Shown here one piece after another: positions 29,189-46,775 of a stretch of DNA of 64,000 bases. The position numbers and the translations under genes were made by a program. The stretch is taken from the NCBI GenBank assembly GCA_963725805.1, contig CAVSAF010000023.1, forward strand, positions 88,201 to 152,200. The letters run 5' to 3'. The notes beneath the pieces were generated by a model that was given only the letters and a program-made list of their open reading frames with translations, was not told where the DNA came from and did no database searches. The DNA is from an uncultured Chloroflexia bacterium. Its GTDB lineage: Bacteria; Chloroflexota; Anaerolineae; Anaerolineales; Villigracilaceae. The first letter of the stretch is position 1. The number at the start of each line of letters is the position of its first letter.

Positions 29189-29274
29189 CTTCTGAATTAC
29201 AATTGCGCCCGCTCATCGGTTTGGCAGGCGAATCTTTTTCGGGTGACTGTTGAGGATCATCATTTTGGAGGAAC

Positions 29275-30162: not shown

Positions 30163-30292
30163 CCGGTTCAATTCGAGATGTCTCCAACGGGAAAGCGTTC
30201 CTTTCCGGCCTTGAATGCTTTCTGCCTTGGCAGCGGGGCATTCAAGACGAAACCCGCCCGCTAATTCATCTGCTGGATATATGCGGAGAAGA

Positions 30293-31138
30293 ATGACCCA
30301 TATTGGTATCATGCAAGGCCGCCTTGTTCCCCCAACGGATAACCGTATCCAGTGTTTTCCGCGTGAGCGCTGGGCGGATGAGTTTGCGCTTGCCAGCCAG
30401 GCTGGACTGGACTGCATCGAATGGATCTATGACCTGTATGGGGCCGACATCAACCCGCTTGCAACAGATACCGGCATTAAGAAAATCAAGGATCTTTCCC
30501 AGCAACATCAGGTCAAAATCCTTTCCATTTGTGCAGATTATTTTATGGACAGGCCACTTGTACGAGCCAGCCAGGCGGAACTGGATGACCGTCTCAATAC
30601 GTTCTACTGGTTATTGGAGCGCGGCCGCTTGATTGGCATCAACCGGATGGTGATACCCTTCGTGGATGCATCCCGCATCGACACCCAGGCTGAATTTGAC
30701 GGGGTGGTGCTTCTCCTGAAACGCATTCTCCGGAAGGTCGGGAAGACTGGAATTGAAATTCATCTGGAGACATCCCTGAATCCGCTTCGTTTTGCCGGGC
30801 TTCTGGTGCAAATACCTCATCCGTTGCTCAAGGCCAACTACGATTCCGGGAACAGTTCTTCCCTGGGGTATGACCCGCGCGAGGAATTTACTGCCTATGG
30901 GGACCGGGTGGGCAGCGTCCACATTAAGGACCGCCTCAAGGGTGCAAGCACGGTGCCGCTCGGGAAGGGCGACGCGGATTTCCCGGCCCTGGCAGAAAGC
31001 CTGAGGAAGGTTGCCTATGCTGGGGATTTCATTTTGCAGGTGGCACGCGGAACCAGCGGAGACGAAGTGGCTTGGGCCAGGCAGAACCGTAATTTTGTTT
31101 TGAAGCATTTTGTTCATAATGATGGTGTACAACTCTGA
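30293..31138 (+). CDS. Xylose-isomerase-like TIM-barrel sugar(-phosphate) isomerase/epimerase
   Basis: IGIMQGRLVPP...CFPRERWADEFALASQAGLDCIEW...VHIKDR...PLGKGDADF is AP_endonuc_2-like. The ATG at 30293 follows GGAG; alternative ATG at 30281 (ORF track 30215). Confidence 0.6.
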   Translation: MTHIGIMQGRLVPPTDNRIQCFPRERWADEFALASQAGLDCIEWIYDLYGADINPLATDTGIKKIKDLSQQHQVKILSICADYFMDRPLVRASQAELDDRLNTFYWLLERGRLIGINRMVIPFVDASRIDTQAEFDGVVLLLKRILRKVGKTGIEIHLETSLNPLRFAGLLVQIPHPLLKANYDSGNSSSLGYDPREEFTAYGDRVGSVHIKDRLKGASTVPLGKGDADFPALAESLRKVAYAGDFILQVARGTSGDEVAWARQNRNFVLKHFVHNDGVQL

Positions 31139-31150
31139 GGATAAAGAAAG

Positions 31151-32191
31151 ATGAAAATATTGATCATGGGTCTCGGCGGTATTGGACAGCGTCACCTGCG
31201 TAACCTGCGCAGGTTGCAGGGTGATGATCTGGAAATCATCGCATATGATCCCCGCCCCAATCCACCGGTTCTCACTGACCAGCTTAAAATTGAAGAGGGG
31301 CTGAGCCTGGAGAAAAAGTTCGGCCTGGCAATCTTCCCGGATGCCGAACAAGCTTTGGCCCAAAAACCACAGGCCGTCTTTGTGTGCAACCCCACCAGCC
31401 TGCATATCCCGGCGTCTATCCGGGCGGCTCAGCAAGGCTGCGCCTTGTTCATCGAGAAACCGCTCTCGCACAACCTGGAAAATGTGGACGAATTGATCAG
31501 CCTGGTGGAAAGCCGAGGCCTGACAGCCGCGGTTGGCTACCAGATGCGTTTCCACCCCTGCCTGCAGCGCCTGCATGCCCTGGTTCAGGAGAAAAAAGTC
31601 GGCCGGATTCTATCTGTTCGGGCGGTGGTTGGAGAGTACCTGCCTGGCTGGCACACCTACGAGGATTACCGTCAGAGTTATGCTTCGAGAACGGACCTGG
31701 GAGGAGGTGTGATCCTTACGCAAATCCACGAGCTGGATTATCTTTACTGGCTGTTTGGCCTGCCCCGGCGCATATTTGCGCTGGGCGGGCATCTGAGCAG
31801 CCTGGAAGTTGATGTGGAAGACACCGCCGATATTCTGATGGAGTGCATGCTGGATGGTCATCCGATTCCTGTCAGCCTGCATCAAGATTACATACAAAAT
31901 CCGCCCAGTCGTTCCTGTGAGATCGTCGGGGATGCCGGGAAGATCCTGGTTGATCTTCGTGCGTTGACGGTGGATGTTTTCGATGGCCGGGGTAATCGGA
32001 TCGAGACCACTTCTTACGAAGGATTCCAGCGCAACCAGTTATTCCTGGACGAATTGAAGTATTTTCTGGATGGCATGCAGGGAAAACCGACTCCGCTGGT
32101 CAATCTGCGAGACGGGGCGCAAAGCTTGCGCATGGCCCTCGCTGCGAAGGAATCCCTGGTCACCGAGAAGGTTGTTGAAATTGAAAGGTAA
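31151..32191 (+). CDS. Gfo/Idh/MocA-family NAD(P)-dependent oxidoreductase
   Basis: MKILIMGLGGIGQRHLRNL Rossmann N-terminus, ...VFVCNPTSLH...FIEKPL... Confidence 0.75.
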   Translation: MKILIMGLGGIGQRHLRNLRRLQGDDLEIIAYDPRPNPPVLTDQLKIEEGLSLEKKFGLAIFPDAEQALAQKPQAVFVCNPTSLHIPASIRAAQQGCALFIEKPLSHNLENVDELISLVESRGLTAAVGYQMRFHPCLQRLHALVQEKKVGRILSVRAVVGEYLPGWHTYEDYRQSYASRTDLGGGVILTQIHELDYLYWLFGLPRRIFALGGHLSSLEVDVEDTADILMECMLDGHPIPVSLHQDYIQNPPSRSCEIVGDAGKILVDLRALTVDVFDGRGNRIETTSYEGFQRNQLFLDELKYFLDGMQGKPTPLVNLRDGAQSLRMALAAKESLVTEKVVEIER

Positions 32192-32196
32192 GATAA

Positions 32197-33027
32197 ATGG
32201 AGAATACTAAGGACTTATTCAGTTTGGCCGGCCGGGTGGCGGTCATCACCGGCGGGACCGGGTTGCTGGGCCGGCAGCATGCAGAAGCCATCGCCCGGGC
32301 AGGTGGTATTCCTGTCCTGGCGGATATCCACATCAATGGGGTGGACCAGCACAGCCAGGATTGGAAAGAGCGCTTTGGCGGGCAAGCCTGTGCCATGCAG
32401 ACGGATATCACCGATTTGACGAGTGTCAAAAATCTGCTTGCCGCAGTACTGGATCGGTTCGGCCGGGTTGACATCCTGATAAACAATGCTGCCAACAATC
32501 CCAAGATGGAAAACAGGACGGATGTGGAATTCTCCCGCCTGGAATTCTTCCCGCTTGAACAGTGGGAGGCTGACCTGAATGTTGGCCTCAAGGGGGCCTT
32601 CCTATGCTCACAGGTAATTGGCAGTGAAATGGCCCGCCGCAAGCAGGGCGTGATCGTCAATGTGGCCTCCGACCTGGCGGTCATCGCCCCTGACCAGCGC
32701 CTTTATCGCAAACCAGGCCTGCCCGAGGACCGGCAGCCGGTCAAGCCAGTCACCTATTCGGTGGTGAAGACCGGTCTGATCGGCCTGACGCGTTATCTGG
32801 CCACCTATTGGGCTGATAGCGGCATCCGTGTCAATGCGATCTCCCCTGGCGGTGTGTACAATGAACAGCCGGGTGATTTTGTCGAGCGGCTTGCCAGGCT
32901 GATCCCCCTGGGCCGTATGGCCACTGCCAATGAATATCAGGCCGCCATCCTGTTCCTGTGTTCGGACGCCTCTTCCTACATGACAGGCGCCAATCTGGTG
33001 ATCGATGGCGGACGAAGCTGCTGGTAG
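32197..33027 (+). CDS. Short-chain dehydrogenase/reductase (SDR)
   Basis: VAVITGGTGLLGRQ, NNAANNP, YSVVKTG (YxxxK), ISPGGV. Confidence 0.8.
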   Translation: MENTKDLFSLAGRVAVITGGTGLLGRQHAEAIARAGGIPVLADIHINGVDQHSQDWKERFGGQACAMQTDITDLTSVKNLLAAVLDRFGRVDILINNAANNPKMENRTDVEFSRLEFFPLEQWEADLNVGLKGAFLCSQVIGSEMARRKQGVIVNVASDLAVIAPDQRLYRKPGLPEDRQPVKPVTYSVVKTGLIGLTRYLATYWADSGIRVNAISPGGVYNEQPGDFVERLARLIPLGRMATANEYQAAILFLCSDASSYMTGANLVIDGGRSCW

Positions 33028-33051
33028 GTTCTGATTTGGAGAAAGTGGATT

Positions 33052-33631
33052 GTGATTAGTCCTATGAAACTTGAAGAGGAATTGAAGATCCATACACGGA
33101 TCATGGAACAGACCGTTAAAGAGAGCTCACAGGTCATTCACGCGATTGCCGGATGCCTGGTGGAATGCTTTCGCAAAGGCAACAAAGTGATGGTCTGTGG
33201 CAACGGCGGCAGTGCGGCCGATTCTACAGCATATGGTGGCCGAATTTGTCAACCGCTTTCGCATGGACCGGGCTGCCTTGCCCGCCATTGCGCTGACGGT
33301 GGACACATCCACCCTGACAGCCATTGGGAACGATGCATCCTTCGAATTCACCTTCTCGCGCCAGGTGGAAGCCCTGGCCAGAGCCGGCGATGTTTTGATC
33401 GCGTTCAGCACGAGCGGTGGTTCGCCCAACGTTCTGAAGGCACTGGACGTGGCGCAGGCGCGTGAAGTCAAGATAATTGGCTTTACAGGCGAAAAAGGAA
33501 ATCCCACGATGACTATGAAATGTGATTTCTGCCTGGTCGTCCCCTCCGCAGATACGCCCCGGGTCCAGGAAGTTCACGAATTTGTCTGGCATGTCATCTG
33601 CGGTATGGTGGAACAGGCATTGTTCGAATAG
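33052..33631 (+). pseudogene. GmhA-like SIS-domain sugar-phosphate isomerase, interrupted by a +1 frame disruption near 33226
   Basis: Frame 1 reads ...KVMVCGNGGSAADS then nonsense (TAYGGRICQ...). Frame 2 continues QHMVAEFVNRFRMDRAALPAIALTVDTSTLTAIGNDASFEFTFSRQVEALARAGDVLIAFSTSGGSPNVLKAL...RVQEVHEF, collinear with E. coli GmhA ([21 protein letters not shown]...). Removing one base at GAT TCT [A] CAG CAT restores the frame. Confidence 0.75.
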
Positions 33632-33690
33632 GATTGATTCCGGCAAGATTGTGGCGGCAGGAAAGCCATTCCACATGCCGGAGGATCCAT

Positions 33691-35430
33691 ATGCGATCAT
33701 TCACTAGGAAGCTTCTGGGATTTGTGCGGCAACCGTCCTTGCTGGCGTTTGTCTATTTTGTTATTCTGAGCATCATCATGACCTATCCTCTGGTGGCCAG
33801 GATGGGCAGAGCTGCGGCAGGGGCAGGCGGGGATGGCAGTTATTTCATCTGGCTGGTGGGTTGGTACCAGAAGGCGCTCTTCCAGTTGAAGATCAGTCCG
33901 TTCTTTGCTCCTTATCTGAATTATCCGCAGGGTTGGAACCTGGCGACCACGGATATCACGCCGGCGATGGTGGGATTGGCATTGCCGGGGAGCCTGCTGT
34001 TTGGGCCGACCTGGGGGTACAACTTTGCGATGCTGCTCAGCTTTATTCTCTCAGGCTGGGGGATGTACCTGTGGGTGAGACACCTGACGGATGACAATTG
34101 GGCCGGACTGGTTGCCGGGACGGTCTTTGCCTTCCTGCCGTACCGCATGGCCCATTTTATTGTCGGGCACTTGAGTCTGGCGGGTACGCAGTGGTTCCCG
34201 TTCTATTTCTGGGGATTGTTCGACCTGCTGAAGCAGGAGAAGTTTTCGTGGAAGCCGGTTCTGATGGCGGGGATTGCGGCAGGGTTAATCGGTTTGACCA
34301 GCCCGTATTATGTTTACATGACCATACTGATTACGGTGGTCTTCCTGCTGGGTTTCGTGATCTTCAAGGGGTACAAGCGTTTGAGGCATGCGGTGTTCTG
34401 GGAGAGCCTGGTGGCATTTGGTCTGCTGGCGATGGTTCTGGTGGGGCTTTCGATGCTGCCCTATCTCCGCCTGAATGCCCAGGGAGGCCTGCAAGAGCGC
34501 TCTGTGGAATACATGAACCGTTACTCGGCCAGCCCGACGGACTTTGTGATCCCGTCGATCAAGCAGTTCTTGTGGGGGGGATGGATCGACAGAACCTTCA
34601 ACCCGGAAATATTCCAGGAAGCGACCCTGTATATCGGTGTGGTGGCTTTGGTGTTGGTGGTGATTGCCTGGATCAAACGGCGCCGGTTGCGGCACCCGGA
34701 ACTGTTGGGGATTGCCAGCCTGGTGGCGGTGGTTGCGTTCGTGCTGGCCCTGGGAATGCAGTTGCACTGGCTGGGGACCACCACTCTGCCGAAGGTTTTA
34801 CAATCCCTATTTCACCGAACAAATCTTCCTTATTTTTACCTGCCAGCCTACTACCTGAGCCGCTACTTGCCCTACTTTTCCAAGATGCGGGTAATGATGC
34901 GCTTTGGGTTGTTCACGCTGATCTTCACCAGCCTGATGGCCGGACTGGGGGCCTATGTGTTGACGAAAACGGCCTCTTCCAAAGCCAGGCGCTGGGTCGG
35001 GGTTGGCCTGCTGGTGCTCGTTTTTATCGACTTCTATCCGGGTGTGTTGAGTGATTTCAAAACGGTGCAGGCTCGCCCGGTGGATACCTGGCTGGCGGCC
35101 CAGCCCAACACAGGCGCAGTGGCACAGTTCCCCTTCGATGAGGAATCAAACCAGGGCCAGGTGTATGACACGCTGGTCCATCAAAAGCCCTTCCTGGGTG
35201 GCAATTTCAGTGCCAACTCGCCGGAACAGTACACCCGCATCCAGCCGGTCATGGACACATTCCCATCTCAGGAAAGCGTTGATTTGCTCAGGCAGTTGGG
35301 TGTGAGCTATGTGGTGGTGGATTCTTCCCGCTACCCGGATTTCACCAGTGTTGATGGAAAGATCCGGTCTTTGGGTCTGCCGCTCTTGCATGTCAGTCAA
35401 GCCGAGTATGTTTACGGATTAAGCAAATGA
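33691..35430 (+). CDS. Polytopic membrane protein, GT-C / YfhO-like candidate
   Basis: ATG 33691 is preceded by GGAGGA. N-terminus ...IIMTYPLVARMG...GDGSYFIWLVGWYQKALF... is followed by about 12 helices and a C-terminal soluble domain. Confidence 0.45.
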   Translation: MRSFTRKLLGFVRQPSLLAFVYFVILSIIMTYPLVARMGRAAAGAGGDGSYFIWLVGWYQKALFQLKISPFFAPYLNYPQGWNLATTDITPAMVGLALPGSLLFGPTWGYNFAMLLSFILSGWGMYLWVRHLTDDNWAGLVAGTVFAFLPYRMAHFIVGHLSLAGTQWFPFYFWGLFDLLKQEKFSWKPVLMAGIAAGLIGLTSPYYVYMTILITVVFLLGFVIFKGYKRLRHAVFWESLVAFGLLAMVLVGLSMLPYLRLNAQGGLQERSVEYMNRYSASPTDFVIPSIKQFLWGGWIDRTFNPEIFQEATLYIGVVALVLVVIAWIKRRRLRHPELLGIASLVAVVAFVLALGMQLHWLGTTTLPKVLQSLFHRTNLPYFYLPAYYLSRYLPYFSKMRVMMRFGLFTLIFTSLMAGLGAYVLTKTASSKARRWVGVGLLVLVFIDFYPGVLSDFKTVQARPVDTWLAAQPNTGAVAQFPFDEESNQGQVYDTLVHQKPFLGGNFSANSPEQYTRIQPVMDTFPSQESVDLLRQLGVSYVVVDSSRYPDFTSVDGKIRSLGLPLLHVSQAEYVYGLSK

Positions 35431-35514
35431 TTCACCTTTTTCAGGCAAGGAAACGGAATTGGCGCCAGGATACAATCGCATGTTTTCTGTTCTGTCTATA
35501 CTCAGGAGGTTTTT

Positions 35515-36393
35515 GTGGCTGAGATCAAGATTGGAGATCGCCTTGTTGGAGATGGTCACCCTACTTATATCATCGCCGAGATCGGCAACAATCACAACGG
35601 CGATTTGGATGTCTGCAAACAAATGATTGACGCGGCCGTCCACGCCGGAGTGGACGCGGTCAAATTCCAGAAGCGTACACCGGAAGTCTCCACCCCGCTT
35701 GGTCAACAGAACCAGATGCGCGAGACCCCCTGGGGATATATCACCTACCTGGAATACCGTTACAAGGTTGAATTTGGCCAGGAACAATATCGTGAGATTG
35801 ACCGGTATTGTAAACAAAAGGGGATCACTTGGTTCACATCTGTTTGGGACGAACAAGCCGTGGATTTTATGGAGCAGTTCAACACCCCGATATACAAGAT
35901 CCCATCGGCTTCCCTGACTGACCATGACCTGCTCCGTCATGTTCGAAAAACAGGCCGCCCTCTGGTGATTTCCACCGGCATGTCCACCATGGAACAGATC
36001 CGGGCGTCAGTCAAGGTTGTCGGGACCGGGGACTTGGTCATCATGCACTGTACCAGTACTTATCCTTGCGAGCCTGAAGAACTCAACCTGCGCATGATCC
36101 GGACCCTGCAAAACGAATTTCCCTGCCCGGTCGGTTATTCCGGCCATGAGGTCGGTCTTGTTCCGCCACAGGTTGCAGTGGCTTTGGGCGCCTGCATCAT
36201 TGAAAGGCACCTGACCCTTGATCGGGCCATGTGGGGTTCCGATCAGGCCGCTTCGGTGGAACCAAGCGGCTTCGAGCGCCTGGTCAAATATGTGCGTACT
36301 GCAGAAGCCTCGCTGGGCGACGGCGTCAAGCGTGTCTACGAAAGCGAGAAGAGCACATTGAAGAAGCTGCGTAGAGTTGTAACGGAAGATTAG
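35515..36393 (+). CDS. NeuB-family synthase lacking the SAF domain, copy b
   Basis: GTG start after AGGAGG. TYIIAEIGNNHNGDLDVCKQMIDAAVHAGVDAVKFQKR...GYSGHEVG...IERHLTLDRAMWGSDQAASVEP. I estimate about 55% identity to copy a by eye. 292 aa. Confidence 0.75.
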   Translation: MAEIKIGDRLVGDGHPTYIIAEIGNNHNGDLDVCKQMIDAAVHAGVDAVKFQKRTPEVSTPLGQQNQMRETPWGYITYLEYRYKVEFGQEQYREIDRYCKQKGITWFTSVWDEQAVDFMEQFNTPIYKIPSASLTDHDLLRHVRKTGRPLVISTGMSTMEQIRASVKVVGTGDLVIMHCTSTYPCEPEELNLRMIRTLQNEFPCPVGYSGHEVGLVPPQVAVALGACIIERHLTLDRAMWGSDQAASVEPSGFERLVKYVRTAEASLGDGVKRVYESEKSTLKKLRRVVTED

Positions 36394-36414
36394 CACAGAA
36401 AATTAAGAGGTTCT

Positions 36415-38304
36415 ATGCCTGAGATCAAAATCGGTAATCGTTTAATAGGAGACGGCCATCCCACCTATATCATTGCAGAGATTGGCGTTAACCATAATGG
36501 TATTCCCCAACTGGCATTTGAGTTGATCGATATTGCCGTGGATGCGGGTGCGGATGCTGTAAAATTCCAGAAACGCAATTTAAAGACCCTTTATCCTCAA
36601 AAATACCTGGATAATGTCAATGCGGGCGAGAAGAGTCTGCGTTATCTGCTCCCTATCCTGCAGCAGGTGGAGTTGCCGGAAAGTACATATCACGAGATCG
36701 CCGCGTACTGCAAGAAAAAGGGCATAACTTTCTTGTGCTCGCCCTTTGATAAAGAAAGCGCCGACTTTTTGGAAACCCTCGGCGTACCGGCTTTCAAGGT
36801 GGCTTCTGCGGACTTGACGAACCTGCCCCTGCTTGACCACCTGGTCAAGAAAAAGAAACCCCTTATCCTGTCAACCGGCATGTCCCGTCCCGACGAGGTT
36901 GATTTTACGGTTGGATATCTGAAAGAGCGCCAGGCGCAGTTTGCTCTGTTGCACTGCAACAGCACCTATCCGGCTGCTTTTGAAGATATTAATCTGCGCT
37001 ACATGGATCAATTGCGTAAATACGCTGTGCCGGTGGGATATTCTGGTCACGAACGCGGCATTGCGGTTTCCACTGTTGCGGCCGCGCTGGGCGCCAATAT
37101 CATCGAACGGCATATCACCCTTGACCGCGCCATGGACGGTCCTGACCATGCTGCCAGCCTGGAGCCACAGGGATTCAAGAAAATGGTCAGGGATATCCAC
37201 CTTGTTTCTTTGGCGCTGGGAACCGGAGAAGAGAAATTTTTCTCGCGCGGCGAGATCCTTAATCGGGAGACCCTGGCAAAGAGTCTCGTTGCGACCCGGA
37301 ATATCGAACCAGGCGAGGTTATTACGGTTGAGATGGTATCTGTAAAAGGTCCAGGCCTGGGTCTTTCCCCGCAGCGCTACCCGGAATTACTTGGCAAGCG
37401 CGCAGCCCGGGCCATTGAAGCCGACGAGCCCTTCCTGGAGAGCGATCTCGGAATTCAACATGAATTGGACATGGAGCATATATTGCCCATGCAGTGGGGT
37501 TTTACCGTGCGCTTCCGCGATTACGAAGACTTGATGGTTTATAACCCCCGCTTCCTGGAATTTCATTTTACCGATGCCGACCTGAATGATGAATATCCAG
37601 GCGTTGATTACGATATGCCGCTGGTTGTGCACGCCCCGGAGTTTTGGGAGCGCACGCTGGTGGACCTGTGCGCCCGGGATAAAAAACGGCGCGTCGATTC
37701 CGTCGCCCTGATCCAGAAATCCATCGACCGGACGCGTGCCATGGCGAAGCACTTTAAAGGCATACCCAAGGTGGTCGTCCATTCCGGGGGCATGACCATA
37801 GACCAGCCCATTCAGGATAATCGGCCCCTGTACGAGAACCTCGGTCGCTCGGTTGAGCAGATTGATTCTGAAGGCGTGGAGATCTTACTTGAGAACCTGC
37901 CGCCTCATCCCTGGTACTTTGGCGGCCAGTGGGTCACGAACGCTTTCATGGATGCCAATGAAATCCGTGAATTCATTGTCCCGCGCAAGCTGAACATCTG
38001 TTTCGATACCAGCCATTCGAAACTTTATTGCAATTGGGCTCACCTGGATTTTTACGAGCAAGTGAAGATCCTCCTGCCCTTTACCCACCATTTGCACATC
38101 TCTGACGGCTCCGGTTTGGATGGGGAAGGTTTGCAAATTGGCGAAGGTAATATTGACTGGGTGCATTTCTTCCGAGTCACAAAGGATTACCACGGCACCA
38201 TGGTTCCCGAAATCTGGCGGGGTCACCAGCATGCCGGGCAGGGCTTCATCCAGGCCATCCAGCGTCTCTCGGAGGCGTTTTTCAAGGCCCAGGAAGAAAA
38301 ATGA
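36415..38304 (+). CDS. Three-domain fusion: NeuB-like synthase + SAF domain + xylose-isomerase-like TIM barrel
   Basis: aa 1-285: TYIIAEIGVNHNGIPQLAFELIDIAVDAGADAVKFQKR...GYSGHERG...IERHITLDRAMDGPDHAASLEP. SAF-like segment: LVATRNIEPGEVITVEMVSVKGPGLGLSP. From aa ~355: ...LVVHAP...VVVHSGG...ILLENLP...HHLHISDGSGLDGEGLQIGEGNIDW, an AP_endonuc_2-type TIM barrel. Confidence 0.7.
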   Translation: MPEIKIGNRLIGDGHPTYIIAEIGVNHNGIPQLAFELIDIAVDAGADAVKFQKRNLKTLYPQKYLDNVNAGEKSLRYLLPILQQVELPESTYHEIAAYCKKKGITFLCSPFDKESADFLETLGVPAFKVASADLTNLPLLDHLVKKKKPLILSTGMSRPDEVDFTVGYLKERQAQFALLHCNSTYPAAFEDINLRYMDQLRKYAVPVGYSGHERGIAVSTVAAALGANIIERHITLDRAMDGPDHAASLEPQGFKKMVRDIHLVSLALGTGEEKFFSRGEILNRETLAKSLVATRNIEPGEVITVEMVSVKGPGLGLSPQRYPELLGKRAARAIEADEPFLESDLGIQHELDMEHILPMQWGFTVRFRDYEDLMVYNPRFLEFHFTDADLNDEYPGVDYDMPLVVHAPEFWERTLVDLCARDKKRRVDSVALIQKSIDRTRAMAKHFKGIPKVVVHSGGMTIDQPIQDNRPLYENLGRSVEQIDSEGVEILLENLPPHPWYFGGQWVTNAFMDANEIREFIVPRKLNICFDTSHSKLYCNWAHLDFYEQVKILLPFTHHLHISDGSGLDGEGLQIGEGNIDWVHFFRVTKDYHGTMVPEIWRGHQHAGQGFIQAIQRLSEAFFKAQEEK

Positions 38305-39942
38305 ATGAATGCTGAGTCAAAAGTGAGTTTGCCTGGTTTCGTGCAGCCGATTCTTCGACGCCTCCAGACGGCTTCAAAGAGCCTGATGAATGACTGGCAG
38401 GTCATCCGCATGGCACGGCAGGTGGCAAGTCATGCCAGGGGAAACCGGGAAAGGCTGCCGGTGGTATTTTTTAATGCATCCACGCGTATCCGCGGAAACA
38501 GCCAGAACGCGGCTTTTTCATTGCTGGCATCCTGGGTGGTGCGGCTGGCTGGAGTAAGGGTCGTCCATTTTATCTGCTGGGCTGGGATGAGTCGTTGCGT
38601 TCTGGGTACGGATCAGGATGACCCTGAAAAGGCCATGCCGTGTTCAATGTGCATTCGCCAGTCAAAGGTGAACACCACCGCTGCGGAGGTGCGCCCGTTT
38701 TCCTATCAACAGGATAACCAACTGGCTGCGGCCCTGCAGTCCCTGAGTTTGAATGAACTCCTGCAGTACGAACACCCCTTTCCGGATTCTGCCGGGTCCA
38801 TCCCGCTGGGCAGGCTGGTCATGCCTTCCTTGCGGTGGAGATTGCGTCTCCAGACCCTGACCGATGACCAGGCGACCCGCTTCATCTGCCGCGAGTTCAT
38901 GCTCTCAGCCTGGAATGTGGCTCGTAAATTCAGTTACTTGTTGGAAAATGTCAAACCTCAGGCTGCCGTCCTGTTCAATGGGATGCATTTCCCTGAAGCC
39001 ACCGCAGCCTGGCTGTGCCGCCAGCGCGGTGTGCGCGTTATCACCCACGAGTCGGGCTTCCAGCCATTCAGCGGATATTTCGTGGAAGGCGACGTCACTG
39101 CTTATCCCATCACGATCCCTGACGTGGACCTCACCCCGGAACAGAACACCCGCCTGGACGTGGACCTGCAGAAACGCACGCAGGGAGACTTCAGCATGGC
39201 TGGTATTCAGTTCTGGAAGGCGATGCACAGTCTGCCGGATGAGCTTGTGCGAAAAGCTGCCGGGTTCAAGCAGGTGGCGGCGGTCTTCACCAACGTCATC
39301 TTTGATACCACCCAGTTGCACGCCAACGTGATCTTCAAAGACATGTTCACCTGGCTGGATGCCCTGCTGGAGGTTTTTAAGGCTCACCCGGAGACGCTCT
39401 TCGTGGTGCGCGCCCATCCCGACGAGGCCCGCCCGGGCAAACGCAGTCGCGAGTCTGTCGAGATGTGGTTTCAGCAGAAGGCCGCCTTCCTCCCCAATGC
39501 GGCCTTTATCCCGCCTCAGGAGCGCATCAGTTCGTATGAACTGATCAGGCTGTCCAAATTCGTGCTGACGTATAACTCGCAGATCGGACTGGAGTCTTTG
39601 TTGATGGGTATTCCTGCCTTGGGCGCGGGCCAGGCCCCATTCGTGGGATACGGAACGGTCTATTTCGAACGGGATCGGGAAGCTTATCTACGCAGGTTGG
39701 AATCCTTTTTATCGGCAACCCGGCTGGAGGTCCCGCAGGAGGCAGTCAGGCGAACCCGGCGCTTCATGTACTATCGTTATTATCGCTTTTCCCTGCCGTT
39801 TGGCGAATATATTGAGTCCACTGCCCCGACTGGATATGTGCGCCTGAAAAAATTTTCCCGGCGCTCTTTGGAGAAATCGCCCACCGCCCGTGCCTTGCAG
39901 AACGGCATTCTGCAAGATGGAAATTTCCTTCTGATGGAATGA
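38305..39942 (+). CDS. KpsC/KpsS (Capsule_synth)-like GT-B protein with a Cys4 insert; candidate ulosonic acid transferase
   Basis: Homologous to 17637..19229 (VAAVFTNVIFDTTQL...ETLFVVRAHPDE...SYELIRLSKFVLTYNSQIGLESLLMGIPALGAG). It has a unique C-x6-C-x14-C-x2-C at aa 91-116 (38575..38652). Confidence 0.45.
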   Translation: MNAESKVSLPGFVQPILRRLQTASKSLMNDWQVIRMARQVASHARGNRERLPVVFFNASTRIRGNSQNAAFSLLASWVVRLAGVRVVHFICWAGMSRCVLGTDQDDPEKAMPCSMCIRQSKVNTTAAEVRPFSYQQDNQLAAALQSLSLNELLQYEHPFPDSAGSIPLGRLVMPSLRWRLRLQTLTDDQATRFICREFMLSAWNVARKFSYLLENVKPQAAVLFNGMHFPEATAAWLCRQRGVRVITHESGFQPFSGYFVEGDVTAYPITIPDVDLTPEQNTRLDVDLQKRTQGDFSMAGIQFWKAMHSLPDELVRKAAGFKQVAAVFTNVIFDTTQLHANVIFKDMFTWLDALLEVFKAHPETLFVVRAHPDEARPGKRSRESVEMWFQQKAAFLPNAAFIPPQERISSYELIRLSKFVLTYNSQIGLESLLMGIPALGAGQAPFVGYGTVYFERDREAYLRRLESFLSATRLEVPQEAVRRTRRFMYYRYYRFSLPFGEYIESTAPTGYVRLKKFSRRSLEKSPTARALQNGILQDGNFLLME

Positions 39943-40024: not shown

Positions 40025-41723
40025 TTGAAACGGAATCCAGCCATGTTCCTGTTTGCTATCGTCCTCAGCTTCCTTTACGGTGTGATTGCCGTCAGCCAAA
40101 TTCTGGGGATCCTGGGGATCTATAAAGCCTTCCTTGTCATACCCCTGGCGCTGCTCCTGGGAGGCACGGTCTTCTACCTTTTTATACGGATCGGCAAGCC
40201 ATTCAACGATTCTTTTATCAAACCCTCCAAACTTCCAAGAAACCTTTGGTTGCCTTTGGCGTTTCTGGCCAGTGGATTGGCCTTGTATATCTTGTTGGTC
40301 TTCTTTCCCCTGGCGCATTGGCCATATTCACCCATTTCCAATGTGCTGCCTTGGGATGCCGGCCTGTACCATTTCCCAAAAGCTGCGGAGATGATATCCA
40401 CCGGGTCCGCCTGGGACCTTAGTATTTCTTATGGGGAATATCCTTTTGGCTACGAGTCTCTGGTTGCATTCGCACTTTCCCTCAACCACCCCGGCTTCTT
40501 GATCGGGTCTGTCCATGCTTTGCTATCCTTATTCCTCCTGCTTTCCATGGCGCTTTTGGTTGTGCGCTATACCCGGTTGCCCCTGGCTCCCGTTATCCTC
40601 TTGATCAGCCTTCTTTTCCTGGGATATCAATTGGCCCGGGGATTTGACAGCAATATCTGGTGGATCTTTTGGTCGCAAATCACTTTAATAGGGAAAAATG
40701 ACCTATTCCTGGGCGCTTCGCTCCTGGCAGTCCTTTTATTCACCCCGTTCTCCCGGGAAGGTCCATTCTTTCCATTTGGACTTGCACTGGCGAGTGCCCT
40801 GGCCATCAGCGTCAAGCCGAATGCGGCTCTGGTGATTTTGTTCGCCTGGCTGATAATGTTTTTCTTTATCTGGCGGTCAGGCCAGTTTGGCAGGTACCGT
40901 TGGCAGCTTATCGGCAGTGCAATTGCCATTTTGCCGGGGGCATTGTGGATTTATAGGAACCTGGTTTTACAGGGAGTCCTTTTCAGCCAGGCTTCCCTGG
41001 TCGCCTCAAAATGGAGCATTGCCAGCAACCTGACCAATCCGTTTTTTTATCATTACATTCCTAGAAACCTTTACTATGTTTTGGGCATCATTGCCGTCTC
41101 TGTTGTAGTCTCAATATTCCGACCGGCTCTGCGGTTTTATTGCCTGGCTGCTCTTGTGCTGTTGGTCACTTTTGCATTTACTCCTGCCTCGGCTTTCTTC
41201 CGCGATACCGGGGTGCCTGCCCAAATCGCCTGGCGGTTTGCGATTGCATTGCTGGCCTATCTTTTCGTGCTCCTCCTGGCGCTTTTTGAGCCAATCATCA
41301 TTCCGGTATATGCCTGGATTTCCAGGAAGGTGGTCCTATCCATCCTTCTTGCAGTCGGGGTGCTTGCCTTCGGCGGGTGGGGGGTATGGTCGCAGAGAGA
41401 TCTATTGAGTACCCATGCTCGGAATGCGATCGTTCTGCACGACCAATTTCTGCACACCTGTCGGCGTGGATGGTTATTACAGTGCCTACGATTATGTCCA
41501 GAAAAATGTTCATAACTCGGTGGTCATTACTGAAAATGGTTTACCGTACTACCTGTATGACGCAGGATTTACCAATACTGTCACCCGCTCCCGTCCGGCT
41601 GACTATGTTGTCTACCTTAAAGACCCGGGTGGTTATCCTGGTGCGCTTGACCAGCCGGATTGGTCGGCGGTTTGGCAATTGGTCTATAAAGACTCACAAG
41701 GTAGAGTCTATCAACGAAAATGA
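40025..41723 (+). pseudogene. Polytopic GT-C-like membrane protein whose C-terminal soluble domain is in the +1 frame (disruption between 41409 and 41515)
   Basis: ORF 40025..41515 ends in an implausible Cys/Arg-rich tail (LHTCRRGWLLQCLRLCPEKCS). The overlapping +1 frame, open from 41409, reads a well-formed domain PVGVDGYYSAYDYVQKNVHNSVVITENGLPYYLYDAGFTNTV...WQLVYKDSQGRVYQRK ending at 41723. Confidence 0.6.
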
Positions 41724-41794: not shown

Positions 41795-42463
41795 ATGACA
41801 AAACTCGCAGCCCTTGTTCCAATGCGCCACCATTCGCAGCGGGTTCCCGGCAAGAACTTCCGCTCGCTGGCGGGTAAGCCACTCTACCAGCACATTATCG
41901 AGACTCTGCTGTCAGTTCCGGAGATTTCCACCGTCGTTGTGGATACTGATTCTGACCCGATTATGGACGGTCTTGGGCGGGATTTTCCCCAGGTGATTAT
42001 TCTGCCACGCCCGGAGAATCTTAGAGCAGACGCCATCTCCATGAATGAGATCCTTCTCTACGATACCTCCCGGGTCGAAGCTGATTTTTACCTCCAAACC
42101 CACAGCACCAATCCGCTGCTGCGCCCGGAGACCATCTCGAAAGCCGCCCAGACTTTTCTGGCCAATTATCCTGTGTATGACTCGCTCTTCTCGGTGACGC
42201 GGCTTCATACCCGTTTATATGACCAGGCCGGAAATGCCCTCAACCACGATCCCAACGTCCTGCTCCAGACTCAGGACCTGCCGCCGGTCTTTGAAGAGAA
42301 CTCCTGCATCTATATTTTTACCCGCGAAAACCTGGAAAGACGCCGCAACCGTCTGGGTGAGCACCCGTTCATGTACGAAATGGACCCTGGCGAAGCCTGG
42401 GATATTGACGAAGAGTTGGATTTTGCCATCACCGGCTTTCTGATGCAGCACCGTATGAAATGA
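41795..42463 (+). CDS. NeuA/KdsB-family cytidylyltransferase, copy 3 (divergent)
   Basis: AALVPMRHHSQRVPGKNFRSLAGKPLYQHII...VVVDTDSD is a CTP_transf_3-type P-loop with His/Gln substitutions relative to copies 1 and 2. Confidence 0.7.
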   Translation: MTKLAALVPMRHHSQRVPGKNFRSLAGKPLYQHIIETLLSVPEISTVVVDTDSDPIMDGLGRDFPQVIILPRPENLRADAISMNEILLYDTSRVEADFYLQTHSTNPLLRPETISKAAQTFLANYPVYDSLFSVTRLHTRLYDQAGNALNHDPNVLLQTQDLPPVFEENSCIYIFTRENLERRRNRLGEHPFMYEMDPGEAWDIDEELDFAITGFLMQHRMK

Positions 42464-42513
42464 ATTCATCCCACAAGAGATTAATAATATCCTCTTGAAT
42501 TGAGATCATCTTG

Positions 42514-44046
42514 ATGAAAAAACTGTTCAAGGCTTTTAACATTCCCTGGTATTTTGTATTTTTTGCTGCTTACCCGGTCCTGGCACTGCTCTCTCATAAC
42601 ATTTCGCAGGTCCGCTATACCGCCGGTATTCGGCCGCTGATCGTTTCGGTGGCAGCCGCCTTGTTGCTTTTCCTGCTTTTCCGGCTGCTCTATCGGAACT
42701 GGCACCGGGCGGCTTTCGCCACAAGCGCGATTTCGGTGCTGTTTTACACCTACGGTCACGTTTTTGACCTGCTACAAAACAACAAATGGAAAATCCCGCT
42801 TCCTGCCTGGCTGGGTGGATTGTGGCTTGTCCTCACGATCCTGGCATTGATCTGGGCAGGGCGACCTTCGAGCCACTTCCAGAATGCCGCGCTGACGCTG
42901 AATATCATCTCGCTTGGCCTGGTGTTGTTCGCGGCCGGTCAGGTGGTCAGGCGATCGATTCCGCCGGTTGCGCAGGCAGCTCAACCGGTTGACCCAAACG
43001 CCCCGATCCAGGCGCTTCAGGTCCCCAACGGGCAGATTCCGCCGGATATTTACTATTTCATCCTTGATTCGTATGGCCGGTCTGATCTTTTGAAGAACAA
43101 TTTTCAATATGACAATAGCGCATTTATATCAGACCTGGAGAAGATGGGGTTCTACATAGCGGAATGCAGCCAAAGCAATTATCCTCGCACGGATATCTCG
43201 CTGGGGTCTTCATTAAATTTGGATTATCTTCAAAACCTGAACGACAAGTTCACTCCCAAAAATGAGGATCGCACGCAGCTATGGGAGTCCATTCTCCATA
43301 GTACCGTTCGTTACGAGTTGGAGAGCGCTGGTTATCGAACGGTTGCATTTGCCAGCGGCTTTGCTTTTACAGAAATTACAACAGCCGATATGTATCTTTC
43401 ACCCTCGCCGGTATGGTCAGCGATGACTGAGTTCGAAACCTTGCTCCTTCGTACCACCCCGGCACGCCATCTGGAGGATCTTGGCCTGGTCGATCTTGGT
43501 CAGATTGACGGCCAGCGCTACCGGGACCGCACCCGGCTGGTATTGGGCAGCATGGGCAGGCTGGCGCACATGCCTGGTCCCAAGTTCGTTTTCATTCATC
43601 TTATTCAACCCCACCCTCTTTTTGTATTTGGGCCGGATGGGTCGCCCACCAATCCCGCTCCTTTCATGGATGCCAACGGTATTTACTCGCAGGAGAACTA
43701 TTCCAAAGGATATCGTAATCAGGTGGAGTTTATTTCCAGCCAATTGGAAAAAGCTATAACGACCCTTCAGGCTGGTTCCGCCACGCCGCCCATAATCATC
43801 CTCCAGGGCGACCATGGCCCCTGGCTTCAGACGGGCAGCGACGAATTTAAAATCCTTAACGCGTACTACCTGCCCGGCCATAATAACCTGCTCTATCCGA
43901 CCATTTCGCCAGTCAATACTTTCCGTCTGATATTTGACACTTATTTGGGAGCAGATTATCCTTTATTGGAAGATCTAAGTTACTCATCGCCCGTTCCGTT
44001 CGTTTTCAATTTCTCTCCAGCCCCGAATCCCTGTTCAGATCATTAG
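42514..44046 (+). CDS. Membrane-anchored sulfatase/alkaline-phosphatase superfamily transferase (LtaS / phospho-headgroup transferase-like), copy 1
   Basis: About 5 N-terminal TM helices, then IYYFILDSYGRSD (metal/nucleophile region) ...FVFIHLIQPHPLFVF...IIILQGDHGPW. ATG 42514 (ORF track TTG 42511). Confidence 0.6.
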   Translation: MKKLFKAFNIPWYFVFFAAYPVLALLSHNISQVRYTAGIRPLIVSVAAALLLFLLFRLLYRNWHRAAFATSAISVLFYTYGHVFDLLQNNKWKIPLPAWLGGLWLVLTILALIWAGRPSSHFQNAALTLNIISLGLVLFAAGQVVRRSIPPVAQAAQPVDPNAPIQALQVPNGQIPPDIYYFILDSYGRSDLLKNNFQYDNSAFISDLEKMGFYIAECSQSNYPRTDISLGSSLNLDYLQNLNDKFTPKNEDRTQLWESILHSTVRYELESAGYRTVAFASGFAFTEITTADMYLSPSPVWSAMTEFETLLLRTTPARHLEDLGLVDLGQIDGQRYRDRTRLVLGSMGRLAHMPGPKFVFIHLIQPHPLFVFGPDGSPTNPAPFMDANGIYSQENYSKGYRNQVEFISSQLEKAITTLQAGSATPPIIILQGDHGPWLQTGSDEFKILNAYYLPGHNNLLYPTISPVNTFRLIFDTYLGADYPLLEDLSYSSPVPFVFNFSPAPNPCSDH

Positions 44047-44053
44047 CCTTCCT

Positions 44054-45010: not shown

Positions 45011-45066
45011 CCTGATTCACGTGAGGCAAATTTGACACAAGGTACACCGTTGTTGGAAGCGATTGA

Positions 45067-46746: not shown

Positions 46747-46775
46747 CAGGATGCGAATCCCACAGAGTGTGATCA

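What the first reader, a model, noticed from the sequence alone, without database searches (positions are those of the whole stretch)
36415..38304. NeuB-SAF-TIM-barrel three-domain fusion
A complete NeuB synthase with its SAF domain is fused in frame to a ~275-aa AP_endonuc_2/xylose-isomerase-like TIM barrel (HISDGSG...GEGNIDW). In the first module the same two functions are separate neighbouring genes (29275..30162 and 30293..31138). This gives Rosetta-stone style evidence that the TIM-barrel enzyme acts directly before or after the condensation step, for example isomerising or epimerising the sugar(-phosphate) substrate or the ulosonate product. I do not know of a characterised NeuB with this partner.
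Basis: partly seen in the sequence, partly recalled or inferred. Interest (0 to 1): 0.7.

Follow-up and report, generated by a model that had tools for sequence, protein, structure and literature searches.

The report
Sugar-acid synthase fused to metallo-TIM barrel
This gene encodes a real, widespread but never-studied two-enzyme fusion: a sialic-acid-type sugar-acid synthase joined to a metal-binding barrel domain that resembles a DNA-repair phosphodiesterase more than a sugar isomerase, which points to an undescribed step in how many bacteria build surface sugar acids.

Summary
ORF 36415..38304 (+) encodes 629 aa with NeuB (37-272), SAF (289-345) and AP_endonuc_2 TIM barrel (~360-629). It is not a sequencing artefact: the frame is uninterrupted in 74/80 Anaerolineae species loci, and dozens of 50%-identity clusters share the architecture. 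A CBS-extended form occurs in cultured Vibrio, Marinobacter, Prochlorococcus and Ensifer.

The in-window "split pair" (29275, 30215) is not a split version: that TIM barrel shows no similarity to the fused one. True split orthologues exist elsewhere (L090-L092), so the Rosetta-stone logic holds. The conserved partners are a cytidylyltransferase, often a GFO/IDH/MocA oxidoreductase and an SDR, and a KpsS/C-like protein.

The NeuB core is intact but lacks the ManNAc-contacting Arg314, so it is probably not a Neu5Ac synthase. The TIM domain is closest to MJ1311 and endonuclease IV and keeps 7 of 9 Endo IV metal-ligand positions.

Best guess (about 0.4): a metallo-phosphoesterase that removes the phosphate from the ulosonate-phosphate product, replacing the HAD phosphatase. 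Isomerase or epimerase roles remain live rivals. No publication on it was found.

The parts
36415..38304 (+). Whole fusion gene (629 aa): NeuB-SAF-TIM bifunctional protein
   Evidence: ORF; Pfam; architecture conserved
36405..36410 (+). Shine-Dalgarno-like AAGAGG, 4 nt before the ATG
   Evidence: Sequence read
36415..37230 (+). NeuB catalytic (beta/alpha)8 domain, residues 1-272. It keeps the equivalents of N. meningitidis E25, K53, Q55, K129, S132, S154, Y186, S213, H215, E234, H236 and D247
   Evidence: Pfam; alignment to 1xuu; residue conservation
37279..37449 (+). SAF (antifreeze-like) lid domain, residues 289-345. It has Gly312 where NmeNeuB has the essential Arg314
   Evidence: Pfam
37450..37491 (+). 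Short linker, residues 346-359. Split-form TIM genes start at the position equivalent to about residue 359
   Evidence: AF2 secondary structure; split-gene N-termini
37492..38301 (+). Endo IV/MJ1311-like metallo-TIM barrel, residues 360-629. Family-invariant residues: E382, H384, D389, H406, D531, H534, H561, D564, E571, E599, H604. Clade-specific pair: H456 and E493
   Evidence: AF2 pLDDT 94.1; Foldseek; profile vs PDB; conservation; ligand map
27121..27951 (+). CTP_transf_3 cytidylyltransferase, orthologue of the gene that sits directly upstream of the fusion in most relatives
   Evidence: Pfam; 57.6% median id, directly upstream of the fusion in about 42/80 loci; best match of the partner CTP in L081 and L087
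31151..32191 (+). GFO/IDH/MocA oxidoreductase, recurrent partner of the fusion or split pair
   Evidence: Pfam; 34-36% id (E 7e-58 and 3e-83) to the GFO genes next to the fusion in L081 and the split pair in L091; present in 47/80 loci
32197..33027 (+). SDR oxidoreductase, recurrent partner
   Evidence: Pfam; homologues beside the fusion in L081, L088, L089 and L091; 62/80 loci
38305..39942 (+). Capsule_synth (KpsS/KpsC-like) 545-aa protein whose start abuts the fusion's stop. Candidate transferase for the CMP-activated product
   Evidence: Pfam; found in 68/80 loci, directly downstream in about 56; 45-48% id in L088 and L089

Best explanation
The gene encodes a bifunctional enzyme of a large, uncharacterised family.

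The N-terminal NeuB-SAF module condenses phosphoenolpyruvate with an aldose to give a 3-deoxy-2-ulosonic acid. The aldose is not ManNAc. It is probably a sugar phosphate taken straight from central metabolism, with mannose-6-phosphate (giving Kdn-9-P) as the leading candidate.

The C-terminal domain is a catalytically competent metallo-TIM barrel derived from the endonuclease IV/MJ1311 branch of the AP_endonuc_2 superfamily. It performs the step next to the condensation. I think that step is most likely hydrolysis of the terminal phosphate ester of the ulosonate-phosphate, the job done by HAD phosphatases (KdsC, NANP, BT1713) in known pathways. The free ulosonate is then CMP-activated by the adjacent CTP_transf_3 enzyme. 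In many lineages it is tailored by the GFO/IDH/MocA and SDR oxidoreductases, and it is transferred by the KpsS/C-like protein (Maf-type proteins in flagellar loci).

Shown: the architecture, an intact NeuB catalytic set, loss of Arg314, invariant metal-type residues in the TIM domain, affinity to Endo IV/MJ1311, and the conserved gene partnership. Inferred: the sugar identity, the use of a phosphorylated substrate, and the phosphatase chemistry.
For: (1) Coupling of the two halves. They are fused in Chloroflexota, Gammaproteobacteria, Cyanobacteria, Alphaproteobacteria and Bdellovibrionota. They are adjacent separate genes in L090-L092. The TIM sub-family has no other partner.

(2) The NeuB catalytic residues are at least 96% conserved, but Arg314 is replaced by Ser in 61/80 and by Gly in the window protein. 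R314 is otherwise the only conserved catalytic SAF residue in NulO synthases (PMC8208679). The protein scores below the NeuB and PseI equivalog cut-offs.

(3) A profile of the TIM domain hits MJ1311 at 7e-14 and Endo IV at 6e-7 to 1e-5. The best sugar enzymes score 4e-3 to 0.5. The top three Foldseek hits are MJ1311, M. tuberculosis Endo IV and T. maritima Endo IV.

(4) Seven of the nine Endo IV zinc-ligand positions are kept in the window protein: H406, H456, E493, D531, H534, H561, E599. That includes the Zn1 pair, for which the window's own sugar-epimerase-like TIM (30215) shows no His at the H456 position (low-confidence alignment).

(5) The superfamily already contains a small-molecule phosphodiesterase, CbiR (PMC7733943). 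Two family members hit the CbiR model.

(6) Minimal islands (cytidylyltransferase + fusion +/- one transferase) have no NeuC-type hydrolase, aminotransferase or HAD phosphatase (L085, L086, L087, L095). A CBS regulatory domain sits on the proteobacterial and cyanobacterial forms, as on the first committed enzyme KdsD (the KdsD comparison is my own knowledge).

(7) In this window the other ulosonate module carries a KdsC-type HAD fused to its cytidylyltransferase (27938..29188). The fusion's partner cytidylyltransferase has none. The HAD is within reach in only 18/80 Anaerolineae loci and in no other lineage.

(8) A ManC (PMI/GDP-Man pyrophosphorylase) gene sits directly upstream of the pair in Ensifer and nearby in L085. 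Kdn-9-P synthases are NeuB homologues that need a separate phosphatase, which is missing in some organisms (PMC6200933).
Against: No biochemical data exist.

The two Zn3 ligands of Endo IV (D229, H231) are absent and replaced by an invariant Glu.

In three quarters of the family the Zn1/Zn2 residues H456 and E493 are Asn/Ser/Thr and Gln. That is odd for a binuclear hydrolase.

Foldseek scores for ketose 3-epimerases and UlaE are only 1-3 orders of magnitude weaker, and UlaE has the best TM-score, 0.70. Single-sequence NCBIfam hits include fructoselysine and L-ribulose-5-P 3-epimerases.

Most characterised PF01261 members are isomerases, epimerases or dehydratases (my own knowledge).

Use of a phosphorylated substrate is inferred from context only. 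ManC linkage is seen in only two to four loci.
Confidence: 0.4

Rival explanations
1. The TIM domain is a sugar or sugar-phosphate aldose-ketose isomerase or 2-epimerase. It makes the aldose substrate for the NeuB module from a more abundant sugar, and the irreversible condensation pulls the equilibrium.
For: It belongs to Pfam PF01261. There are NCBIfam hits to fructoselysine 3-epimerase and L-ribulose-5-P 3-epimerases. Foldseek hits ketose 3-epimerases, UlaE (TM 0.70) and xylose isomerases. The E493-D531-H561-E599 tetrad is present in the window protein. JGI annotates it as sugar phosphate isomerase/epimerase. A fusion of consecutive steps is plausible.
Against: E493 is Gln in 61/81 family members. 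That would remove one of the two catalytic bases of the DTE/UlaE mechanism. The closest relatives are Endo IV/MJ1311, not isomerases. Extra invariant His residues (H384, H406, H534, H604) are not explained. If the substrate is a sugar phosphate, a phosphatase is still missing from the minimal islands.
Confidence: 0.2
2. The TIM domain works with the GFO/IDH/MocA dehydrogenase and the SDR as a keto-intermediate epimerase or dehydratase (YcjQRS-, IolG/IolE- or LgdA/LgdB-like logic). This would convert the ulosonate or its precursor to a different stereoisomer or a deoxy form.
For: GFO and SDR genes flank the fusion or the split pair in Anaerolineae, a marine lineage and a groundwater lineage, and they are mutually homologous. 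The 3-keto-D-glucoside 4-epimerase YcjR appears among the profile hits (E 0.034). That GFO-type dehydrogenase + AP_endonuc_2 TIM pairs are a known functional unit is my own knowledge of the YcjQRS, Iol and Lgd pathways.
Against: GFO and SDR are absent around the fusion in L084-L087, L090 and Ensifer L095. The TIM-NeuB link is universal, so the TIM role appears tied to NeuB and not to the redox pair. The E493Q issue applies here too.
Confidence: 0.15
3. The TIM domain is a degenerate, non-catalytic scaffold or oligomerisation module.
For: Part of the Endo IV site is lost (D229/H231), and H456/E493 vary.
Against: Eleven polar His/Asp/Glu residues at barrel-end positions are 98-100% conserved across sequences only 25-42% identical. 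The model is a confident complete barrel (pLDDT 94). Stand-alone copies are maintained as separate genes.
Confidence: 0.03
4. Sequencing or assembly artefact that joins two genes.
For: Six of 80 related loci show a broken frame.
Against: All six are from one MAG series (MFD). The other 74 loci, together with hundreds of independent assemblies and complete genomes of cultured Vibrio, Marinobacter, Prochlorococcus and Ensifer, carry the intact fusion.
Confidence: 0.01

Closest known systems
N. meningitidis NeuB (Neu5Ac synthase; PDB 1xuu) and C. jejuni PseI (8h2c)
   Same: About 32% identity over residues 3-335. The TIM-barrel + SAF architecture is the same, as are all metal- and PEP-binding residues.
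   Different: There is an extra 270-aa C-terminal metallo-TIM barrel. Arg314 is replaced by Gly/Ser, N184 by Ser and E134 by Asp. The protein scores below both equivalog cut-offs. No NeuC, PseB, PseC or PseG-type genes are obligatorily linked.
Kdn pathway of Bacteroides thetaiotaomicron and Prymnesium parvum (Kdn-9-P synthase + HAD Kdn-9-P phosphatase + CMP-Kdn synthetase)
   Same: It uses a NeuB-type synthase on a central sugar phosphate, followed by a phosphatase and then a cytidylyltransferase. There are no amino-sugar tailoring genes. A ManC gene neighbours the fusion in Ensifer and L085.
   Different: Here the proposed phosphatase would be an Endo IV-like TIM barrel fused to the synthase instead of a separate HAD enzyme. 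The substrate was not tested.
MJ1311 (PDB 3wqo, 'D-tagatose 3-epimerase-like protein') of M. jannaschii
   Same: It is the best sequence-profile hit (7e-14) and the best structural hit (1e-11). It shares the H, H, E, D, H, H ligand pattern, and the two align without the 4-residue Endo IV insert. It is listed as the predicted Endo IV homologue of M. jannaschii (PMC2770678).
   Different: MJ1311 is stand-alone, its function is unknown, and it keeps D-x-H where the fusion family has G-E-G. Identity is about 21%.
Endonuclease IV (Nfo; PDB 1qtw, 5zhz, 4hno)
   Same: The fold is the same. Seven of nine zinc-ligand positions and the DxxH, HxxD and GEGxI motifs are shared.
   Different: It lacks D229/H231 and the insert that carries them. 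It scores far below the nfo family cut-offs (16-18 vs 333 bits). It is fused to a sugar-acid synthase, so DNA is an implausible substrate.
CbiR cobamide-remodelling phosphodiesterase (Akkermansia)
   Same: It is an AP_endonuc_2 member that hydrolyses a phospho-ester in a small molecule and depends on metal (PMC7733943). Two family members hit its model weakly.
   Different: The similarity is only distant, and the substrate and context are different.
YcjR / UlaE / D-tagatose 3-epimerase type sugar epimerases
   Same: The fold is the same. The window protein has an E-D-H-E tetrad, and it often has a GFO-type dehydrogenase as neighbour.
   Different: The first Glu is Gln in most of the family, and there are extra invariant His residues. 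Profile E-values are weak (0.03-0.5).

Membership tests
NeuB family (PF03102) PEP:aldose condensing synthases | Pfam score above gathering threshold | tested here: met
   284.6 bits against a cut-off of 22.1
NeuB family (PF03102) PEP:aldose condensing synthases | Two metal-binding His (Nme H215, H236) plus the PEP/sugar-binding residues E25, K53, Q55, K129, S132, S154, Y186, S213, E234, D247 | tested here: met
   H212 and H233 and all the others are present in the window protein and at least 96% conserved in 80 fusion representatives
NeuB family (PF03102) PEP:aldose condensing synthases | C-terminal SAF/antifreeze-like lid domain | tested here: met
   PF08666 at 45.7 bits against a cut-off of 21, residues 289-345
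N-acetylneuraminate synthase sensu stricto (TIGR03569 equivalog) | Score at or above the curated cut-off | tested here: not met
   347.2 bits, below 399.65
N-acetylneuraminate synthase sensu stricto (TIGR03569 equivalog) | SAF-domain Arg314 contacting ManNAc | tested here: not met
   Gly312 in the window protein; Ser in 61/80 of the family. R314 is reported as conserved in SAF-bearing NulO synthases (PMC8208679)
Pseudaminic acid synthase PseI (TIGR03586 equivalog) | Score at or above the curated cut-off | tested here: not met
   255.8 bits, below 340.25
AP_endonuc_2 / xylose-isomerase-like TIM barrel superfamily (PF01261) | Pfam score above threshold and a (beta/alpha)8 fold | tested here: met
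   92.2 bits against 31.1. All 28 diverse members match. The AF2 model has pLDDT 94 with eight strands. Foldseek probability is 1.00 to many family structures
Endonuclease IV (Nfo) | Nine ligands of the trinuclear zinc site (H69, H109, E145, D179, H182, H216, D229, H231, E261) | tested here: not met
   Seven of nine are present in the window protein. D229 and H231 lie in an Nfo-specific insert that is absent here. H109 and E145 become N/S/T and Q in 61/81 of the family
Endonuclease IV (Nfo) | NCBIfam nfo / PRK01060 cut-off | tested here: not met
   16-18 bits against 333
Endonuclease IV (Nfo) | DNA-binding groove and AP-site recognition loops | not testable with these tools
   No coordinates were available for surface analysis. 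Nfo Y72 has no conserved counterpart in the alignment
Ketose / ketose-phosphate 3-epimerases (DTE, UlaE, FrlC) | E-D-H-E metal tetrad in which both Glu act as catalytic bases | tested here: inconclusive
   The window protein has E493, D531, H561 and E599, but the first Glu is Gln in 61/81 family members
Ketose / ketose-phosphate 3-epimerases (DTE, UlaE, FrlC) | NCBIfam equivalog cut-offs | tested here: not met
   FrlC 25-28 bits against 305. Other family members reach E 2e-4 to the L-ribulose-5-P 3-epimerase model; the window protein itself does not match it at E <= 0.01
Kdn-9-P synthase / phosphatase type pathway | Synthase uses a sugar phosphate (Man-6-P) and the product is dephosphorylated before CMP activation | not testable with these tools
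   Context only. There is no NeuC or aminotransferase in the minimal islands, ManC is adjacent in Ensifer and L085, and the partner cytidylyltransferase has no HAD domain

The most novel reading that the evidence does not exclude
The C-terminal domain is a new kind of sugar-acid phosphate phosphatase: an endonuclease IV-derived metallo-TIM barrel recruited to small-molecule chemistry. The protein would then be a one-polypeptide ulosonate-phosphate synthase/phosphatase. This is a non-HAD solution to the dephosphorylation step of Kdn/sialic-acid-type pathways. It would define a previously unrecognised, cross-phylum route (Chloroflexota, Vibrio, Marinobacter, Prochlorococcus, Ensifer) to a CMP-activated deaminated nonulosonic, or related, acid.
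Probability: 0.35. Interest if true: 0.7.

Novelty: new variant of a known kind. Interest (0 to 1): 0.58.

Why it matters
Nonulosonic and related ulosonic acids decorate capsules, LPS, flagella and S-layers, and they shape host, phage and environmental interactions. Large surveys of NulO synthases classify sequences as Neu/Leg/Pse types and have not noted this architecture (PMC8208679).

This family is abundant in peat and soil Anaerolineae, and it is present in tractable organisms: Vibrio alginolyticus, V. harveyi, Marinobacter salsuginis, Prochlorococcus MIT 1307 and Ensifer canadensis. It has an intact synthase that lacks the ManNAc-specific arginine, and an obligate partner domain of unknown chemistry.

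Working out what the TIM domain does would add a missing enzymatic step to ulosonic-acid biosynthesis. It would probably reveal which sugar acid these bacteria display. If the domain is a phosphatase, it would extend the catalytic range of the Endo IV fold. It would also correct the routine annotation of these genes as 'N-acetylneuraminate synthase'.

Tried and rejected
(1) The in-window split pair. I compared the fused TIM with gene 30215..31138 and found no similarity, so it is rejected as the split form.

(2) Full-length AF2 model (pLDDT 73.6, pTM 0.56). It is too uncertain to judge whether the two active sites face each other, and its Foldseek output was dominated by NeuB. I replaced it with a domain-only model.

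(3) P0335, an apparent CBS-NeuB-HAD fusion that would have supported non-orthologous replacement of TIM by a phosphatase. Its NeuB domain is truncated at profile position 163/241 on a low-coverage contig (cov 5.75) where synteny breaks. I treat it as a probable chimera and do not use it.

(4) Three-way alignment of the fused TIM, Nfo and the 30215 protein. The registers were unreliable in the N-terminal half, so I used only the beta4, beta5, beta7 and beta8 positions.

(5) hmmalign of Nfo to the family HMM aligned only from E145 onward. The H69 and H109 mapping comes from MAFFT L-INS-i and from the profile-PDB alignments to other Endo IVs.

(6) Taxon names through cluster look-ups of the representatives: mostly unnamed metagenome contigs. 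This was solved with a seeded homologue search and a plasmid tblastn.

(7) Context look-up of the stand-alone TIM P0455: not on record. P0163 sat on a 910-bp contig.

(8) Literature searches for NeuB + xylose-isomerase-like TIM barrel, sialic acid synthase + endonuclease IV, sialic acid synthase + phosphatase + fused + TIM barrel, and the MJ1311 structure paper returned nothing relevant. My recollection that the MJ1311 paper reports conservation of all nine Endo IV ligands without a DNA groove could not be verified in the library and is marked as memory.

(9) ManC as a universal neighbour: found in only two to four loci, so it is a hint and not a rule.
Full report
OBSERVATION. The window has an ATG-initiated ORF at 36415..38304 (+) of 629 aa. 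It is preceded by AAGAGG at 36405-36410. It ends in a TGA that abuts the ATG of the next gene. Pfam places NeuB at residues 37-272 (E 7.9e-85), SAF at 289-345 (9.6e-12) and AP_endonuc_2 at 398-618 (5.4e-26).

IS THE FUSION REAL? Yes.
- All 120 best 90%-identity clusters (73-90% id) are 625-642 aa with the same three Pfam domains. They come from JGI, ENA, NCBI and Logan assemblies, and the named ones are Anaerolineales/Chloroflexota MAGs.
- A scan of GTDB species genomes with the TIM domain alone found 267 relatives. The best 80 are essentially all Anaerolineae/Chloroflexota.
- In 74 of those 80 the TIM domain lies in an uninterrupted frame of at least 625 codons. The six exceptions all come from one MAG series.
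- In the exhaustive 50%-identity library, about 97 of the top 150 representatives contain the TIM domain, and 80 are full-length fusions at 25-42% identity over that domain.
- A subclass of 740-780 aa adds an N-terminal CBS domain. That form occurs in cultured Vibrio alginolyticus, V. harveyi, Marinobacter salsuginis and Prochlorococcus sp. MIT 1307, in M. excellens, Colwellia and Porticoccaceae MAGs, in Cyanobium PCC 7001 and on Ensifer canadensis replicon pT173e. A Bdellovibrionales MAG has the short form.

The gene at 30215..31138 is also PF01261, but it shows no pairwise similarity to the fused TIM (BLASTP E 2.6) and does not hit an HMM built from 81 fused TIM domains. Its NCBIfam affinities are to L-ribulose-5-P 3-epimerases. 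NeuB29275 and NeuB35515 are SAF-less paralogues, 46% and 45% identical to the fusion's NeuB part.

True split forms do exist elsewhere.
- In L090, a flagellar island (FliD-FliS-Maf), a 360-aa NeuB-SAF gene overlaps by 38 nt a 266-aa TIM gene.
- In L091 and L092, a 345-aa NeuB-SAF gene is followed 4 nt later by a 273-aa TIM gene.
- These TIMs are 42% and 39% identical to the fused domain (E 1e-77 and 7e-72) and score 287 and 274 bits on the family HMM.
- A profile search with the TIM domain found only three architectures: TIM alone, SAF+TIM, and NeuB+SAF+TIM.

GENOMIC CONTEXT.
- In Anaerolineae the usual order is GFO/IDH/MocA - SDR - CTP_transf_3 - fusion - Capsule_synth-like protein.
- The cytidylyltransferase is directly upstream in about 42/80 loci. 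The KpsS/C-like protein is directly downstream in about 56/80.
- The window's layout, with NeuB35515, an unknown 598-aa protein, a SIS gene and TIM30215 inserted, is shared by about 13/80 loci.
- The window's CTP27121, GFO31151 and SDR32197 are the best homologues of the genes that flank the fusion or the split pair in a marine lineage (L081), a groundwater lineage (L091) and L087. They belong functionally with the fusion rather than forming a separate 'first module'.
- Across distant lineages the one constant neighbour is the cytidylyltransferase (L081, L085, L086, L087, L095).
- In L086 the pair plus one DUF6716 protein sits among housekeeping genes. No NeuC-type hydrolysing epimerase, aminotransferase, dehydratase or HAD phosphatase is obligatorily linked.
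- In Ensifer the operon is ManC (PMI/GDP-Man pyrophosphorylase) - CTP_transf_3 - fusion - glycosyltransferases. ManC is also near the fusion in L085, but it is not general.

THE NeuB HALF. Equivalents of N. meningitidis E25, K53, Q55, K129, S132, S154, Y186, S213, H215, E234, H236 and D247 are present. They are at least 96% conserved in 80 fusion representatives, so the condensation chemistry should be intact. Arg314 is different: it is Gly312 here and Ser in 61/80. A 13,941-sequence survey found R314 to be the only conserved catalytic residue of the SAF domain (PMC8208679). The protein also scores below the NeuB_NnaB and PseI equivalog cut-offs. It is a NeuB-family synthase but probably not a Neu5Ac synthase. 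A non-acetamido substrate of the mannose type (Kdn-like) is a reasonable inference.

THE TIM HALF. A domain-only AlphaFold model built on a 28-sequence diverse alignment is confident (pLDDT 94.1, pTM 0.93) and shows a complete eight-stranded barrel.
- Foldseek ranks MJ1311 (3wqo, 1e-11), M. tuberculosis Endo IV (7e-11) and T. maritima Endo IV (4e-10) first. Ketose 3-epimerases, APN1, UlaE (best TM, 0.70) and xylose isomerases follow.
- A sequence profile gives MJ1311 7e-14 and Endo IVs 6e-7 to 1e-5. Sugar enzymes score much lower: 3lmz 4e-3, YcjR 0.034, UlaE 0.065, DTE 0.5.
- MJ1311 is listed as the predicted Endo IV homologue of M. jannaschii (PMC2770678).
- Across 81 domains only 25-42% identical to the query, these residues are 98-100% conserved: E382, H384, D389, H406, D531, H534, H561, D564, E571, E599 and H604.

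I validated an E. coli Nfo sequence as 100% identical to 1qtw and used it to map the ligands:
- H69 = H406
- H109 = H456
- E145 = E493
- D179 = D531
- H182 = H534
- H216 = H561
- E261 = E599
- D229 and H231 lie in an Nfo-specific four-residue insert. They are replaced by G-E571-G.

The window protein therefore keeps the full Zn1 and Zn2 ligand sets and part of Zn3.

Positions 456 and 493 covary perfectly. H+E occurs in 20/81 members, all of them short forms, including the window protein; the split genes of L090 and L091 carry the same H+E motifs. N/S/T+Q occurs in 61/81 members, including all 45 CBS-type proteins and the named Vibrio, Marinobacter, Prochlorococcus, Cyanobium and Bdellovibrionales proteins.

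MECHANISM. It is established that the two modules act together and next to a cytidylyltransferase. The chemistry of the TIM module is not established. I favour a phospho-ester hydrolase acting on the product of the condensation, at about 0.4, for these reasons:
- The nearest relatives are phosphodiesterase-type metallo-barrels.
- The Endo IV-specific Zn1 histidines are retained.
- The superfamily already contains a small-molecule phosphodiesterase, CbiR (PMC7733943; weak hits).
- Minimal islands have no way of making a free, unphosphorylated sugar and no other phosphatase.
- A CBS domain suggests a first committed enzyme that draws on a central metabolite.
- In this window the other ulosonate module carries a KdsC-type HAD fused to its cytidylyltransferase, while the fusion's partner has none.
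- The documented Kdn route (Man-6-P + PEP -> Kdn-9-P -> Kdn -> CMP-Kdn) needs such a phosphatase, and none was identifiable in P. parvum (PMC6200933).

Against this:
- The Zn3 ligands are lost.
- Most of the family has N/Q at the Zn1/Zn2 positions.
- Structural scores for epimerases are close.
- Most PF01261 enzymes are isomerases, epimerases or dehydratases.
- The phosphorylated substrate is itself an inference.

Rivals:
- A substrate-supplying isomerase or 2-epimerase (about 0.2).
- A keto-intermediate epimerase or dehydratase working with GFO and SDR, as in YcjQRS or IolG/IolE (about 0.15). This is weakened because GFO and SDR are absent in several lineages that keep the NeuB-TIM link.
- A scaffold (about 0.03).
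- An artefact (about 0.01).
- The remainder is unanticipated chemistry.

COMPARISON WITH KNOWN SYSTEMS AND NOVELTY. The protein is a member of the NeuB family and of the PF01261 superfamily. It fails the membership tests for Neu5Ac synthase, PseI, endonuclease IV and the curated epimerase families. Databases annotate it automatically as 'N-acetylneuraminate synthase (family protein)' or 'SpsE/sugar phosphate isomerase/epimerase' or 'SpsE/endonuclease IV'. I found no paper that describes or tests the architecture. I classify it as a new variant of a known kind: a NulO-type synthase with an obligate, uncharacterised catalytic partner domain. It is not unique to this window. It is a broad family, which lowers the surprise of this one instance and raises the value of solving it. 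Interest is about 0.58.

Noticed in passing
window 33052..33631 (+): A GmhA-like SIS-domain gene is split into two overlapping ORFs (33052..33465 and 33197..33631) by a frameshift right after the motif GGSAADS, at about 33207-33212. Most related Anaerolineae loci checked show a single uninterrupted frame of about 195-235 codons (L011 gave 379). It is either a pseudogene or an indel error in this assembly.
   Followed up: yes
window 27121..36393 (+): The cluster holds three NeuB paralogues and three CTP_transf_3 genes. The NeuBs are 29275 and 35515, both without SAF, plus the fusion. The CTP genes are 27121, 27938 and 41795. The one at 27938..29188 is fused to a KdsC-type HAD phosphatase (TIGR01670 111 bits, above its cut-off). 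This suggests up to three distinct CMP-activated acids are made from one locus.
   Followed up: partly
window 30215..31138 (+): The stand-alone AP_endonuc_2 gene belongs to a different, L-ribulose-5-P-3-epimerase-like sub-family. It sits beside a SAF-less NeuB and the CTP-HAD fusion. Orthologues (82% id) occur in only 13/80 related loci, together with the SIS gene and the unknown 598-aa protein at 33634..35430.
   Followed up: partly
Fusion family (A2; representatives P0121-P0270): There is perfect covariation between TIM positions 456 and 493. H+E occurs only in short (<700 aa) forms (the split genes of L090/L091 carry the same motifs). N/S/T+Q occurs in all 45 CBS-bearing forms and in 16 short forms. 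This defines two clades that probably differ in metal stoichiometry.
   Followed up: partly
window 41795..48396 (+); also L088 13670-18894 and L089 15389-17797: A second block is conserved: CTP_transf_3 - (sulfatase-like) - D-2-hydroxyacid dehydrogenase - SDR - MptE/Maf-like protein. It recurs downstream of the fusion in related genomes. It has a cytidylyltransferase but no NeuB of its own. A Maf-like protein in Anaerolineae hints at protein glycosylation.
   Followed up: no
P0209 (963 aa): A different multi-domain relative: two NeuB stretches + SAF + CTP_transf_3 in one polypeptide, that is, a synthase fused to the cytidylyltransferase rather than to the TIM barrel.
   Followed up: no
L094 4493-5869 (P0335): An apparent CBS-NeuB(truncated)-HAD hybrid ORF in a locus otherwise syntenic with L081 up to that gene. 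It is on a contig with coverage 5.75, so it is probably an assembly chimera or a recombination scar.
   Followed up: partly
window 33634..35430 and 40025..41515 (+): Two large ORFs (598 and 496 aa) inside the glycan cluster have no Pfam or NCBIfam match. The first is 78% conserved in 13 related loci. The 596-aa PF27859 (LIC12162) protein in marine locus L081 showed no BLASTP similarity to it.
   Followed up: partly
L090 (Logan SRR14699989_68243) and L084 (Bdellovibrionales JAGRAT010000113.1): The split pair (L090) and the fusion (L084) lie next to flagellar genes: FliD, FliS and Maf in L090, and flagellin in L084. In some lineages the product is therefore probably used for flagellin glycosylation.
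   Followed up: no
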